Shown here: one piece after another, positions 43,923 through 59,921 of the stretch
Layout of the letters: each line of letters starts with the position of its first letter
Numbering within the stretch: the stretch's first letter is position 1
Virus record (IMG/VR): IMGVR_UViG_3300042558_003617
Span: 8,457-72,456 of that record
DNA: 64,000 nt
Origin: a virus
Direction: 5' to 3' (one strand)
The notes under the pieces: model-generated
Seen by the model: the letters and a program-made list of their open reading frames with translations, nothing else
Databases searched by the model: none
What the model was told of the DNA's origin: nothing
Position numbers and translations under genes: made by a program

Positions 43923-44810
43923 ATGACCAATCAAATACAACTTTCGACCAAGCACGGTCAGGTCCTGGTCGAACTACTTGACACTGAGTTTGTTCACTTC
44001 TGGAAAACTCATTATGATCAAATGGTTGATTGTTACAGCCTAACACCTAGACACGTGCCCTGGCCCAATTATCAGCCCTGCAGCCACGAAACTGTTGACA
44101 CACTAATTGATCGCATTTTGAACGTGATCAAAACAATTAACTCCAGCAGTTACCTATGCCCGTTACCGGAAATTGTAACCAAAGATCAATTGAGTAGATT
44201 GGATTTGAGCACACAACAATTGCTCAATCGATTACACAGATATGCAGTAGTAGCTACAGAATTTGGAAATCGATGGCATCACAACGGGCAGGAAGAATTT
44301 AACCCTGTACCCTATACCAACGATGAATTCATGTACAACATCAATGTGTTAAATCAAAGCATTCATTACCTTGAAGAATATGTAATAACACCACACAAAC
44401 AAGAATTCTTGCGACAAGTACAAACAGTAGAGTTTGTTTTTGAGTCATCTAAATACCAAGATGTTGACGTTTTTCTAGATGGATCAGCTGTTGCAATCCC
44501 TGACGAAATGCAACAGCATCTCAGATTGTCGGGGTATGATGTGTGGATCAAAAAAGATCTACTGGGAAAAGACTTTATAACTGCATTTGCAGATCATGAT
44601 GACCCTGCACAATTTGACATACGTCCACCGCCTACAATCAGTGGCGGTATCGCAATTGATCTTGACCAAGGTAGGGACAACCTATTTGACAGTCCTTTAT
44701 TTGCTGCCTGGCTCGGACAATCTCCCAATGATACACATGGTAGCTATCCATTGGGCAAAGTCATTTCTGGTAAAGAAAACTTATTAAAATTCAGCAGACG
44801 TTTCTGGTAG
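43923..44810 (+). CDS. Hypothetical protein (paralogue of 14207..15295)
   Basis: Start at MTNQ, TAAGTA 5 nt upstream; LNRLHRY, LNQSIHYLE. Confidence 0.7.
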   Translation: MTNQIQLSTKHGQVLVELLDTEFVHFWKTHYDQMVDCYSLTPRHVPWPNYQPCSHETVDTLIDRILNVIKTINSSSYLCPLPEIVTKDQLSRLDLSTQQLLNRLHRYAVVATEFGNRWHHNGQEEFNPVPYTNDEFMYNINVLNQSIHYLEEYVITPHKQEFLRQVQTVEFVFESSKYQDVDVFLDGSAVAIPDEMQQHLRLSGYDVWIKKDLLGKDFITAFADHDDPAQFDIRPPPTISGGIAIDLDQGRDNLFDSPLFAAWLGQSPNDTHGSYPLGKVISGKENLLKFSRRFW

Positions 44811-44878
44811 CTCCACCGGGTAACGATCCCAGGACTGCCGGTTATCAGCCGACTGTTATTCCATTTAACTACAGAGCT
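44805..44878 (-). tRNA. tRNA-Ile(GAT)
   Basis: GTCGG-CTGATAA-CCGGC; T-loop ATCGTTA. Confidence 0.88.
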
Positions 44879-44886
44879 ATTCAATT

Positions 44887-44960
44887 TGGCACGGGTACTA
44901 GGGCTCGAACCTAGAATGACAGAGTCAAAGTCTGTAGTGTTACCATTACACTATACCCGA
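44887..44960 (-). tRNA. tRNA-Gln(TTG)
   Basis: ACAGA-CTTTGAC-TCTGT. Confidence 0.9.
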
Positions 44961-44967
44961 ACAATCT

Positions 44968-45059
44968 TGGCGGAAAGCAGAGGAGTCGAACCCCATCCCA
45001 TTTCTGAGAACCTGGTTTTCAAGGCCAGTCGCAGGACCATCCCCGCTGCATTACTTTCC
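44968..45059 (-). tRNA. tRNA-Ser(TGA), likely 8/4 cloverleaf
   Basis: Loop CTTGAAA; GGAAAGTA/TGCTTTCC 8-bp acceptor, GGGG/CCTC 4-bp T-stem, long variable arm, G73. Confidence 0.85.
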
Positions 45060-45068
45060 ATTAACTAT

Positions 45069-45143
45069 TGGTGCCCCAGGATGGAATCGAACCACCACAC
45101 CCTGCTTACAAAACAGGACCTCTACCACTAAGGATACAAGGGC
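45069..45143 (-). tRNA. tRNA-Thr(TGT)
   Basis: Loop TTTGTAA. Confidence 0.88.
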
Positions 45144-45149
45144 AAAAAT

Positions 45150-45223
45150 TGGCGTACCCACTAGGACTCGAACCTAGACTGACGGTTTTGGAGACCGCGA
45201 TGCTGCCATTACACTATGGATAC
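45150..45223 (-). tRNA. tRNA-Trp(CCA)
   Basis: GCGGT-CTCCAAA-ACCGT. Confidence 0.92.
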
Positions 45224-45232
45224 ATTAACATA

Positions 45233-45307
45233 TGGTGGACCGTAACGGGATCGAACCGTTCCTTAAGGCTTGCAAAGCCCTCGTGCCCCCAACAACACTT
45301 ACAGCCC
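45233..45307 (-). tRNA. tRNA-Ala(TGC)
   Basis: G3:U70, loop TTTGCAA. Confidence 0.88.
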
Positions 45308-45308
45308 A

Positions 45309-45373
45309 TACATTCTAAAACACACCATCTGCGGTATTGCAACCCAGATCAGCTTGGTGTATTTTAGAATGTA
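45309..45373 (-). ncRNA. Spacer stem-loop element (family member)
   Basis: TACATTCTAAAATACACCA/TGGTGTGTTTTAGAATGTA 19-bp stem; internal GGGTTGCAATACC. Confidence 0.55.
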
Positions 45374-45374
45374 G

Positions 45375-45518
45375 TGTGTTTCCACACCACATGATAGGGT
45401 CAATACCCTACCCAGGAGTCTTACTGTCTGTGTTACCGCCACAGAGTTCATGTGTCCTGTCCGCCCGTTTGCTTGTTTTTTTGAGTGCTTTAGCGGGACC
45501 TCGTTTCCCAATAGCACT
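45375..45518 (-). ncRNA. Unassigned structured RNA after attenuator A
   Basis: AGTGCT/AGCACT, CACATGA/TCATGTG, CTGTG/CACAG, TAGGGT/ACCCTA helices; no credible ORF. Confidence 0.45.
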
Positions 45519-45523
45519 AAGTG

Positions 45524-45553
45524 AAAAACCCTGGAGTTTTTAATTCCAGGGTC
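45524..45553 (-). terminator. Conditional terminator of attenuator A
   Basis: GACCCTGGA-ATTAAAAAC-TCCAGGGTT-TTT. Confidence 0.85.
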
Positions 45554-45578
45554 TTTGAATTTGTAGATGTTAACTTAG

Positions 45579-45710
45579 TTAATCATCCCATCCTTCAATA
45601 GACCCCGGTACTCCTGGAATACTATTCACATGATCATAGCCGCGTGACCAGGCTGTTGTCGCCTGTGTCAACATGGGTTTGGATCTTGTTAAAGTATTTG
45701 TTTTCATCAT
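45579..45710 (-). CDS. Putative leader peptide A (43 aa, leaderless)
   Basis: MMKTNTLTRSKPMLTQATTAWSRGYDHVNSIPGVPGSIEGWDD; ATG 6 nt after TATAAT; 3' part complementary to terminator 5' arm. Confidence 0.75.
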   Translation of the reverse strand: MMKTNTLTRSKPMLTQATTAWSRGYDHVNSIPGVPGSIEGWDD

Positions 45711-45716
45711 GTACCT

Positions 45717-45824
45717 ATTATAGTTTATTTATGATTGCCTGTCAACCACTAAATTTATGTTTTATTTAGTCCAGTTGATTGGTATTCATTCAAGTATTAT
45801 ACAACAAAAAGCTTTCTTGGTCAA
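45717..45824 (-). promoter_or_regulatory. Two sigma70-type promoters upstream of attenuator A
   Basis: TTGACA-17-TATAAT (45745-45717) and TTGACC-17-TATAAT (45824-45796). Confidence 0.85.
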
Positions 45825-59420: not shown

Positions 59421-59684
59421 TCAACTGCCAATTTTACTGCCTACGTTTTCGCCGTAAGTGTCATCCTGGACTCCGCCCATTTGGAACTTTTTATTGTGGG
59501 TTCCAAGCTCGCGTTGCTTTTTGATACCACTGTGCTGATCGTCAAACTTTTTGTGAGCTATGTAAAAATTTTGTGCCCTTTGAAACTTATTGGCAAGCAA
59601 TTCTTTAAATGTTGTCGGGCATAATGTATTGCCCTGCTCTTCAATCCTCTGACGGAGTTTTTGCTCTCGTATGTCTAAATCCAT
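59421..59684 (-). CDS. Hypothetical protein inside attenuated unit B
   Basis: 87 aa, SD AGGGA. Confidence 0.6.
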   Translation of the reverse strand: MDLDIREQKLRQRIEEQGNTLCPTTFKELLANKFQRAQNFYIAHKKFDDQHSGIKKQRELGTHNKKFQMGGVQDDTYGENVGSKIGS

Positions 59685-59700
59685 TTTTCCCTTTATAAAA

Positions 59701-59731
59701 CAAAAAACCCTGGATGTTTAAGTCCAGGGTT
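59701..59731 (-). terminator. Conditional terminator of attenuator B
   Basis: AACCCTGGA-CTTAAACA-TCCAGGGTT-TTTTG. Confidence 0.87.
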
Positions 59732-59759
59732 CTAAAAATGTGTAGTACACAGATATTAT

Positions 59760-59882
59760 TTAGAAATCCCTGAAATCATGATACTCAAATGCAAACTCAT
59801 AGAGTGAGCTCAACAGATGTGCGCATGGCACGCCTGATGTGCGTTCTAGTTTTGCAGGTATCAATGATGTTGTTCTTTGCAT
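59760..59882 (-). CDS. Putative leader peptide B (40 aa)
   Basis: MQRTTSLIPAKLERTSGVPCAHLLSSLYEFAFEYHDFRDF; ATG 10 nt after TATAAT; 3' end complementary to terminator 5' arm. Confidence 0.75.
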   Translation of the reverse strand: MQRTTSLIPAKLERTSGVPCAHLLSSLYEFAFEYHDFRDF

Positions 59883-59892
59883 GATAGTATCT

Positions 59893-59921
59893 ATTATATA
59901 CGTTTATTTATACCTTGTCAA
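59893..59921 (-). promoter_or_regulatory. sigma70 consensus promoter (with embedded TATAAATA)
   Basis: TTGACA-AGGTATAAATAAACGTA-TATAAT. Confidence 0.88.

What the first reader, a model, noticed from the sequence alone, without database searches (positions are those of the whole stretch)
44805..45745. Attenuator A: leader peptide codons match the six tRNAs it gates (Ala, Trp, Thr, Ser, Gln, Ile)
Seen (minus strand): TTGACA-17-TATAAT, ATG 6 nt later, a 43-codon ORF, an intrinsic terminator, then tRNAs Ala(TGC), Trp, Thr(TGT), Ser(TGA), Gln(TTG), Ile(GAT). Codons 15-22 read ACA CAG GCG ACA ACA GCC TGG TCA (TQATTAWS), all amino acids of those tRNAs; 5 of 6 Thr codons are ACA, and two ATT follow. 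The ORF 3' part CCGGGGTCT-A-TTGAA pairs 14 bp with TTCAA-AGACCCTGG (terminator 5' arm), and ATTCCAGG pairs with CCTGGAAT. Established: this is the architecture of ribosome-mediated attenuation in amino-acid operons. Inference: stalling on depleted or cleaved tRNAs frees the antiterminator and induces replacement phage tRNAs. I know no description of codon-matched attenuation of phage tRNA genes. Caveat: the leader contains 18 of 20 amino acids, so it could be a general translation-stress sensor.
Basis: partly seen in the sequence, partly recalled or inferred. Interest (0 to 1): 0.92.

Follow-up and report, generated by a model that had tools for sequence, protein, structure and literature searches.

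The report
Leader-peptide switch before phage tRNA genes
A giant lake-water phage starts a block of its tRNA genes with a tiny translated gene wired to a stop/go RNA switch, probably so that tRNA output rises when ribosomes decode slowly; the codons do not specifically mirror the six tRNAs behind it.

Summary
The sequence features are real: a 12/12 promoter, an ATG 6 nt later, a 43-codon ORF, an intrinsic terminator and a 14-bp antiterminator. Five tRNAs follow, plus a sub-threshold Ser(TGA)-like one.

The element belongs to a large family in uncultured jumbo phages (IMG/VR).
- Of 141 unique relatives, 138 keep a leader ORF that ends just before the terminator; shuffles give 15%.
- The terminator helix covaries strongly.
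- 138 of 139 carry a matching antiterminator.
- 112 of 116 are followed by tRNA genes.
- The window holds two paralogous copies.

So translation-coupled attenuation is well supported. Codon matching to the six gated tRNAs is not.
- The window's match is ordinary: 17/43, p=0.23.
- Leaders identical over residues 1-40 sit before different tRNA sets.
- The family-wide association is only about one codon per leader.

Instead, the leaders are near-pangrams. 95 of 139 contain all 20 amino acids, against 3% of control windows.

There is no Rfam, Pfam or PHROG match, and my searches found no paper. This scan has already noted the same kind of element on other DNA.

The parts
45796..45824 (-). Upstream second promoter-like site (TTGACC-17-TATAAT). 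Transcripts from here would give the leader ORF a 5' UTR with a weak AGG before the ATGs.
   Evidence: 11 of 12 matches; sequence. Function not tested.
45717..45745 (-). Module promoter TTGACA-17-TATAAT with a TAAATAA motif in the spacer.
   Evidence: 12 of 12; the spacer-motif pattern hits only this site and the module B promoter in 64 kb (0.02 expected). The homologous promoters of relatives are printed.
45579..45710 (-). Leader ORF of 43 codons plus stop, MMKTNTLTRSKPMLTQATTAWSRGYDHVNSIPGVPGSIEGWDD. The ATG lies 6 nt after the -10 hexamer, so the mRNA is probably leaderless.
   Evidence: Homologous ORFs are kept in 138 of 141 unique relatives, against 15% of shuffles. 33 of the 109 relatives with a recognisable promoter also have 12 nt or fewer between the -10 and the ATG. 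Nearest leader: L289.
45649..45665 (-). Hairpin H1 inside the ORF (CAGGC-GACAACA-GCCUG). Possibly a pause hairpin.
   Evidence: Predicted. Across the family this zone is only moderately structured (mean z -1.41, 56% below -1.5).
45613..45620 (-). Region 1 (AUUCCAGG). It can pair with region 2 before region 3 is made, or with regions 3 and 4.
   Evidence: a 1:2 hairpin forms in the truncated transcript. (1:4 appears in the full fold). 1:4 is not supported by covariation.
45594..45608 (-). Region 2, the 5' strand of the antiterminator (CCGGGGUCU-A-UUGAA). It lies inside the ORF and ends 12 nt before the stop codon.
   Evidence: Family: own duplex -19.8 against -10.5 kcal/mol for shuffles, 138 of 139 at or below -10. 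It covaries with region 3 (and partly).
45546..45559 (-). Region 3 (UUCAA-AGACCCUGG). It is shared by the antiterminator (with region 2) and the terminator (with region 4).
45524..45553 (-). Intrinsic terminator: 9-bp stem, 9-nt loop, T5.
   Evidence: Covariation in 136 relatives: 96.8% of cells paired, and 138 double-change cells against 24.8 in shuffles.
45309..45519 (-). Conserved structured RNA between the terminator and the first tRNA. The 5' domain has a hairpin with loop AACGAGG, a second hairpin, and an invariant AAACGGGCGG. More helices follow, ending in a long hairpin at about 45373-45309 that abuts tRNA-Ala.
   Evidence: Fold z = -6.6. 5' domain profile hit at 45516-45436, E = 1e-14. 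Alignment of 36 relatives shows covarying helices. No Rfam family.
45233..45307 (-). tRNA-Ala(TGC)
45150..45223 (-). tRNA-Trp(CCA)
45069..45143 (-). tRNA-Thr(TGT)
44972..45059 (-). Ser(TGA)-like tRNA, below thresholds.
   Evidence: tRNA-Sec model, 34.7 bits against a cut-off of 47. Not called. Conserved in L008 and L032.
44887..44960 (-). tRNA-Gln(TTG)
44805..44878 (-). tRNA-Ile(GAT), the last gene of this sub-array. A convergent + strand ORF ends at 44810.
59451..59921 (-). Paralogous module B: the same promoter type, a 40-codon leader (59882-59760), a terminator (about 59731-59700), a small ORF and the ncRNA 5' domain (59517-59451), then tRNA-Tyr, Glu and Phe.

Best explanation
This is a translation-coupled (leader-peptide) transcription attenuator that sets how much transcription runs from a strong phage promoter into a conserved structured RNA and a block of phage tRNA genes.

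Proposed mechanism:
- RNA polymerase starts at 45710 or just before it, and a ribosome translates the 43-codon leader.
- If the ribosome keeps pace and reaches the end of the ORF, it covers region 2. Region 3 is then free to pair with region 4, and the terminator stops transcription at about 45524.
- If decoding is slow anywhere in the first 30 or so codons, region 2 pairs with region 3. The terminator cannot form, and transcription continues into the structured RNA and the tRNAs.
- Slow decoding could come from a shortage or cleavage of any tRNA, amino-acid starvation, or a lack of ribosomes.

The leader is best read as a general gauge of decoding speed that samples most or all amino acids. 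It is not a list of the six tRNAs behind it.

Shown here: the parts, their conservation, the covariation of both helices, the conserved ORF and stop position, the link to tRNA arrays, and the all-amino-acid composition of family leaders.

Inferred: that the ORF is translated, that the two folds switch termination, and the direction of the response.
For: Anatomy in the window:
- The parts are described. With region 2 removed, the terminator folds. With region 2 present, 2:3 is the predicted fold.

Family evidence:
- The DNA search of 49 related records found the leader region in 16.
- Of 181 loci carrying the downstream RNA motif, 175 have a terminator hairpin plus T-run within 330 nt upstream.
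- Of 141 unique segments, 138 have an ATG ORF of 28 or more codons ending 16-39 nt before the terminator stem, against 15.3% of shuffles.
- Terminator covariation: 7 of 9 pairs change on both sides, 138 cells against 24.8 in shuffles, 0 of 500 shuffles as high.
- Antiterminator: 138 of 139 duplexes are at or below -10 kcal/mol, mean -19.8 against -10.5 for shuffles, and 94% have z below -2. A locus's own upstream region pairs better than foreign ones for 45 of 49 terminator-arm types.
- The stop codon lies a median of 8 nt after region 2.
- 112 of 116 loci with enough sequence have a tRNA within 1.5 kb downstream.
- 95 of 139 leaders hold all 20 amino acids, against 3.0% of length-matched windows from the same phages' long ORFs. 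These include 38-42-residue leaders from divergent clusters. Trp is present in 137 of 139.
- Region 2 is read in two different frames in different relatives (RVR or GS). This shows that RNA pairing, not the peptide, is what is kept there.
Against: - No expression data bear on it. Metatranscriptome contigs cover only the tRNAs and scraps of the leader.
- The window's ATG has no Shine-Dalgarno sequence and sits at the predicted start site. Translation would therefore have to be leaderless, or come from the upstream promoter with a weak AGG.
- Protein-level constraint on the leader is weak: pN/pS is 0.74 in frame against 0.83 and 1.06 out of frame.
- The window's own leader has 18 of 20 amino acids, which is not unusual for 43 residues (P = 0.35).
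- Naked RNA favours the antiterminator fold, so untranslated transcripts would read through. In the window, region 1 can also pair with region 4 right before the T-run, and that fold might still terminate, although 1:4 is not conserved.
- All loci come from related phages, so counts are not independent events.
Confidence: 0.62

Rival explanations
1. One reading: a codon-matched sensor. On this view the leader is written in the codons of the tRNAs of its own module, so that shortage or cleavage of exactly those tRNAs induces their phage-encoded replacements. Each module would then be a specific feedback loop.
For: - Window: eight consecutive residues belong to the six amino acids, and 5 of 6 Thr codons are ACA.
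- Family: leaders match the first six downstream tRNAs slightly better than permuted pairings do. At the amino-acid level the figures are 0.253 against 0.237, with 0 of 5000 permutations as high, n = 103.
- The excess is 0.022-0.033 when one leader per cluster is used.
- Long neighbouring ORFs of the same loci show no such excess (-0.002).
Against: - The effect is about one codon per leader and is spread over many amino acids.
- In phylogenetically independent pairs it is 13.1 positive against 7.5 negative, which is not significant.
- It is strongest in the C-terminal third, where a stall would cover region 2 and favour termination.
- The window's total match is ordinary (p = 0.23). Other leaders score 0.275 on the window's tRNA set, against the window's own 0.31.
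- L141 and L142 have leaders identical over residues 1-40 but different tRNA sets.
- No leader shows runs of one codon as in the his, phe or thr leaders.
Confidence: 0.12
2. A nascent-peptide arrest leader. On this view the conserved Trp, together with the conserved D-R-T-P-E stretch just before region 2, stalls the ribosome in response to a small molecule or factor. The principle is that of the tna and secM leaders, and the stall would set the fold.
For: - Trp is present in 137 of 139 leaders.
- D, R and P are invariant and T and E nearly so in the 70 leaders of the main clade. Only synonymous third-position changes occur at R and P.
- The motif ends about 10 nt before region 2.
Against: - The window's leader and many divergent clusters lack the motif.
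- The Trp-to-Pro spacing varies from 9 to 14 residues in the leaders I counted by hand.
- The conserved nucleotides may serve RNA pairing instead.
- Overall pN/pS is only 0.74.
- The all-20 composition is not explained by this reading.
Confidence: 0.1
3. No switch at all. On this view the ORF is a small phage protein gene with its own partly leaky terminator. The long 2:3 helix is an mRNA-stabilising or RNase III processing structure that separates the mRNA from the tRNA precursor.
For: - The full fold is one long bulged hairpin ending at the T-run.
- The peptide is conserved along its length in the main clade.
- Phage tRNA precursors are heavily processed (general knowledge).
Against: - Regions 2:3 and 3:4 are mutually exclusive, and both covary.
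- The stop codon is held next to region 2 in nearly all relatives.
- Region 2 is read in two frames.
- Leader sequences diverge beyond recognition while the design and the all-20 composition persist.
- No protein family matches.
- 1:4 is not conserved.
Confidence: 0.1

Closest known systems
Leader-peptide transcription attenuators of enterobacterial amino-acid operons (trp, his, phe, leu, thr, ilv leaders; textbook knowledge, also summarised in the passages of PMC10274678 that I read)
   Same: A short ORF directly after the promoter, an intrinsic terminator, an antiterminator that shares a strand with the terminator, and a ribosome position that decides which helix forms.
   Different: - There is no enrichment or run of particular codons.
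- The regulated genes are tRNAs and a structured RNA, not biosynthetic enzymes.
- The element is phage-borne, and the mRNA is probably leaderless.
- Region 2 lies inside the ORF.
- There is no sequence or Rfam relation.
whiB7 (wblC) uORF attenuator of mycobacteria and Streptomyces (PMC10274678: abstract and passages read; PMC7157823: seen only in a search listing)
   Same: A longer uORF of varied composition, with a Rho-independent terminator and an antiterminator. It reports general translation stress. In that system, depletion of biosynthetic or tRNA/synthetase genes for 18 of 20 amino acids activates it, and the uORF composition decides what is sensed.
   Different: - That uORF is Ala-enriched, and the abstract and passages I read do not describe it as kept complete for all 20 amino acids.
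- It controls a transcription factor in Actinobacteria.
- There is no homology to the phage element.
- Here the output is tRNA itself, which would close a direct feedback loop.
Stress-induced tRNA array (trn operon) of Anabaena sp. PCC 7120 (PMC8421152: passages read; PMC10272220: abstract start and term search)
   Same: An accessory tRNA gene array that is silent until translation is impaired.
   Different: Control there is by direct repeats over the -10 box and the start site, with a repressor (TrcR). Neither text contains the words attenuat-, leader or terminator.
T-box riboswitches (textbook knowledge, recalled)
   Same: A terminator/antiterminator choice that reports the state of the tRNA pool.
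   Different: T-boxes bind uncharged tRNA directly and need no ORF. No T-box match appeared in Rfam searches at E up to 10.

Membership tests
Leader-peptide attenuators of amino-acid operons | Short ORF between the promoter and the terminator that is translated | tested here: inconclusive
   The ORF is present and conserved: 138 of 141 relatives against 15% of shuffles. Translation itself is not shown. The window copy has no Shine-Dalgarno sequence, and pN/pS is 0.74.
Leader-peptide attenuators of amino-acid operons | Intrinsic terminator before the regulated genes | tested here: met
Leader-peptide attenuators of amino-acid operons | Antiterminator helix mutually exclusive with the terminator and placed so that a ribosome at the end of the ORF blocks it | tested here: met
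   The stop codon lies a median of 8 nt after region 2.
Leader-peptide attenuators of amino-acid operons | Leader enriched in codons of the amino acid(s) whose supply is regulated | tested here: not met
   the window match has p = 0.23, and the family excess is about one codon. The leaders instead contain all amino acids.
Leader-peptide attenuators of amino-acid operons | An upstream 1:2 hairpin that makes termination the default without translation | tested here: inconclusive
   A 1:2 hairpin forms in the truncated window transcript, but 2:3 wins once region 3 is present. Not examined across the family.
Leader-peptide attenuators of amino-acid operons | Match to a curated leader family (Rfam) | tested here: not met
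   no leader family was listed at E up to 10. The only hit over the leader's 3' part and terminator was 'trpB ncRNA motif', at 21.4 bits against a cut-off of 59.
whiB7/wblC uORF attenuator | uORF of broad composition with a terminator/antiterminator, sensing general translation stress | tested here: inconclusive
   Composition and structure fit. The response to stress is not testable here.
whiB7/wblC uORF attenuator | Lies upstream of a WhiB-family regulator in Actinobacteria | tested here: not met
   Downstream are a structured RNA and tRNAs in a phage.
Arrest-peptide leaders (tna/secM type) | Conserved arrest residues at fixed spacing from the stall site | tested here: not met
   The D-R-T-P-E stretch is present in 70 of 139 leaders but absent from the window's. 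The Trp-to-Pro spacing varies between leaders (hand count).
T-box riboswitch | Stem I specifier and the conserved T-box sequence | tested here: not met
   No match in Rfam at E up to 10.

The most novel reading that the evidence does not exclude
Each tRNA module of these giant phages is a closed feedback loop. A leaderless mini-gene holds all, or nearly all, 20 amino acids and is slightly tuned to the tRNAs of its own module. It measures how fast ribosomes decode in the infected cell. When any tRNA runs short, for instance after a host anticodon nuclease has acted, transcription runs on into a conserved structured RNA and the phage's replacement tRNAs. Those tRNAs then speed up the gauge and shut the module off again.
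Probability: 0.2. Interest if true: 0.9.

Novelty: new variant of a known kind. Interest (0 to 1): 0.72.

Why it matters
Phage tRNA genes are usually treated as constitutive helpers for codon usage, or as decoys against host tRNA-cleaving defences. A conserved translation-sensing switch at the head of tRNA arrays would mean that giant phages make tRNA on demand. It would extend a regulatory principle known from amino-acid operons and from whiB7 to tRNA genes.

The element also offers a compact natural sensor of decoding speed that covers all amino acids, and a testable link to defences that deplete tRNAs. It comes with an unknown conserved structured RNA that is the first thing transcribed after read-through.

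Tried and rejected
Searches and analyses that led nowhere:
- DNA similarity to GenBank phages found only a tRNA-sized hit, and the distant mode found nothing.
- The 311-aa neighbouring ORF has no relative in IMG/VR.
- The exact 36-nt terminator string has no other copy.
- My first terminator finder was too strict, finding 31 loci. I replaced it.
- The MAFFT alignment A2 mis-registers region 2. Its antiterminator count therefore understates pairing: 67% paired, with a slide of -1 nearly as good. I relied on alignment-free duplex tests instead and did not build a covariance model.
- The 1:4 helix seen in the window's fold has no covariation support.
- The H1 'pause hairpin' has only moderate support.
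- Rfam gave no family for the leader or the downstream RNA. Pfam and PHROGs gave none for the leader peptides or the module B small ORF.

Expression data:
- Of 23 listed runs, 5 are on record as RNA, with small shares.
- I laid 4 RNA runs, all kept as contigs. They cover the tRNA genes, some with no differences, and only scraps of the leader and terminator, mostly from relatives.
- Contigs cannot show transcript ends, so this says nothing about termination or read-through.

Literature:
- The searches found no paper describing attenuation of phage tRNA genes. Subscription journals and supplements were not searchable.
- I considered RNase P RNA, tmRNA, 6S RNA, self-cleaving ribozymes, GOLLD and ROOL for the downstream RNA, by recall only. 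None is supported by the Rfam searches.

Tools not used: structure prediction, complex prediction, protein-atlas and homology searches. The question was about RNA and codons.
Full report
WHAT IS IN THE WINDOW. The window is part of an IMG/VR virus record of 72 kb that CheckV rates 21% complete, so it is a fragment of a jumbo phage. It carries 34 ARAGORN tRNA genes, a GroEL-like gene and a cyclase-like gene. It recurs in many lake-water metagenomes.

On the minus strand the parts run as follows.
- A perfect sigma-70-type promoter sits at 45745-45717.
- An ATG follows at 45710, six bases after the -10 hexamer.
- A 43-codon ORF ends at 45579.
- A terminator occupies 45553-45524.
- A 210-nt strongly structured spacer follows (z = -6.6).
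- Then come tRNA-Ala, Trp and Thr, a sub-threshold Ser(TGA)-like tRNA, and Gln and Ile.

The 3' part of the ORF (45608-45594) pairs over 14 bp with 45559-45546, which includes the 5' arm of the terminator. This is the predicted fold of the naked RNA (z = -5.8). If region 2 is left out, the terminator folds instead. The one exception is the Ser tRNA, which no program calls.

RELATIVES. GenBank phages hold nothing similar. The neighbouring cyclase-like protein has 382 relatives in IMG/VR.
- A DNA search of 49 of their records with the leader region of one relative found it in 16.
- I anchored on the downstream RNA motif, which leaves the attenuator free to vary. Of 181 loci, 175 have a terminator hairpin plus T-run within 330 nt upstream.
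- After removing duplicates, 141 unique segments remain. Of these, 138 have an ATG ORF of at least 28 codons that ends 16-39 nt before the terminator stem, against 15.3% of shuffled sequences.
- Of the 12 loci missed by a sequence profile, 11 show the same design with unrecognisably different sequence. One was a false pattern hit.
- 112 of 116 loci with enough sequence have a tRNA within 1.5 kb downstream.
- The window itself holds two paralogous modules, A (this finding) and B (59921-59451). Both are detected by the attenuator profile and by the downstream RNA profile. Both have a promoter with a TAAATAA spacer motif that occurs nowhere else in the 64 kb.

ARE THE TWO HELICES REAL?
- Terminator (136 sequences): 96.8% of cells are paired, 7 of 9 pairs change on both sides, and there are 138 double-change cells against 24.8 in shuffles. 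Slid controls are far lower.
- Antiterminator: the MAFFT alignment mis-registers region 2, so understates it. I therefore used alignment-free tests.
  - The best duplex between region 3 and the preceding 106 nt averages -19.8 kcal/mol, against -10.5 for shuffles. 138 of 139 are at or below -10 kcal/mol, and 94% have z below -2.
  - For 45 of 49 terminator-arm types, a locus's own upstream region pairs better than that of loci whose arm differs at 3 or more positions (-18.9 against -14.3 kcal/mol).
  - Examples are visible by eye. The window has GGGGUCU with AGACCC, most relatives have GGGUCC with GGACCC, and L094 has UUAGGGUUC with GAACCCUAA.
- The stop codon sits a median of 8 nt after region 2, so a terminating ribosome must cover region 2.
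- Region 2 is read as R-V-R in some relatives and as G-S in others. The RNA, not the peptide, is conserved there.
- The extra 1:4 pairing of the window's fold is not supported across the family.

IS THE ORF TRANSLATED? The strongest argument is that the ORF and its stop position persist through heavy divergence. The other evidence is mixed.
- Amino-acid constraint is weak: pN/pS is 0.74 in frame against 0.83 and 1.06 out of frame.
- In the main clade, invariant Arg and Pro vary only at third codon positions.
- The window's ATG lies at the expected start site. Of the 109 relatives with a recognisable promoter, 33 likewise have 12 nt or fewer between the -10 and the ATG. Leaderless leaders therefore recur in the family.

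DO THE CODONS MIRROR THE GATED tRNAs?
- In the window, 17 of 43 residues fall in the six-amino-acid set (p = 0.23) and 12 of 43 codons are strictly readable (p = 0.11). A run of 8 occurs in 1.0% of real ORF windows. ACA is the phage's commonest Thr codon.
- Across 103 loci, leaders match their own first six tRNAs slightly better than permuted ones do: 0.253 against 0.237, with 0 of 5000 permutations as high.
- The excess is 0.022-0.033 with one leader per cluster.
- The excess is absent for neighbouring long ORFs. I report this as a real but very small signal.
- It amounts to about one codon per leader and is spread over many amino acids.
- It is largest in the C-terminal third, where stalling would favour termination.
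- In independent pairs it is 13.1 positive against 7.5 negative, with 7.2 ties.
- Deeper shared ancestry among clusters could still inflate the permutation result.
- The window's own score (0.31) is near what other leaders score on its tRNA set (0.275).
- L141 and L142 share residues 1-40 but precede different tRNAs.

WHAT THE LEADERS DO SHARE.
- Leaders average 19.3 distinct amino acids in 46 residues, against 16.8 for matched windows of the same phages' long ORFs.
- 95 of 139 hold all 20 (controls 3.0%), and 114 of 139 hold at least 19 (controls 14.9%).
- Of 31 clusters below 45% identity, 17 contain an all-20 leader, some only 38-42 residues long.
- Trp is present in 137 of 139.
- The window's leader, with 18 of 20, is at the low end and is not significant on its own.

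This pattern fits a sensor that can stall on any scarce aminoacyl-tRNA. The whiB7 uORF is described in the same terms (PMC10274678: abstract and passages read).

COMPARISON AND NOVELTY. The element works like classical leader-peptide attenuators and like the whiB7 uORF, but it is not a member of either family. It has no regulatory codon enrichment, no homology and no Rfam match, and it has different targets. The stress-induced tRNA array of Anabaena is a functional analogue, but it is controlled by promoter repeats and a repressor (PMC8421152: passages read; PMC10272220: no mention of attenuation by term search). Five literature searches found no account of attenuation before phage tRNA genes. 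Papers outside the held library, and supplements, could not be searched. This scan has noted the same kind of element on other DNA, and module B in this window. Those are AI notes, not independent evidence.

LIMITS. Nothing here shows transcription, translation or switching. The RNA-library contigs I laid are uninformative on these points. All comparative counts come from related phages.

Noticed in passing
window 45309-45519 (-), and 59451-59517 (-): A conserved structured RNA is the first thing transcribed after the terminator in every module. It has a hairpin with an invariant AACGAGG loop whose closing pair covaries (A-U, U-A, C-G, G-U). A second covarying hairpin has a CAC..UAAAAC loop. 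An invariant AAACGGGCGG follows, and then further covarying helices. It matches no Rfam family.
   Followed up: partly
window 59451-59921 (-): A second, paralogous attenuator module (B) precedes tRNA-Tyr, Glu and Phe. Its leader is 40 codons with 18 distinct amino acids (no Asn, no Trp, by my count), and its ATG lies 10 nt after the -10 hexamer. Here the 87-codon ORF after the terminator runs across the ncRNA 5' domain.
   Followed up: partly
window 45717-45745 and 59893-59921 (-); relatives: Module promoters share a TAAATAA motif in the spacer between the -35 and -10 hexamers. The pattern hits only these two sites in 64 kb (0.02 expected). This may mark a dedicated promoter class or a binding site.
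   Followed up: partly
L082, L084 and other loci; absent from module A of the window: Many relatives carry a small ORF of about 50 codons, with a good Shine-Dalgarno sequence, directly after the terminator and before the structured RNA. No Pfam or PHROG family matched the module B version.
   Followed up: partly
L082 about 2190-2275 and the same place in L083-L092: An odd tRNA-like gene follows the structured RNA in many relatives. It has an acceptor stem with an encoded CCA, a T-arm and a CUGUAAC loop (a Tyr-type anticodon), but an irregular D region and a long insert. ARAGORN does not call it.
   Followed up: no
L006:7995-8372: ARAGORN calls a permuted (two-piece) tmRNA gene in a related phage contig, about 4.8 kb downstream of the cyclase-like gene.
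   Followed up: no
window 44972-45059 (-): The Ser(TGA)-like tRNA has a poor D arm. It falls below the Rfam and ARAGORN thresholds but is conserved at 88% identity in two relatives.
   Followed up: partly
leaders listed: Several unrelated-looking leaders end in the same residues (E-G-W-D-D or close, as in the window), while others end G-S-E or K-I-P-R-I. These recurrent C-termini overlap regions 2 to 3 and may reflect RNA constraints.
   Followed up: no
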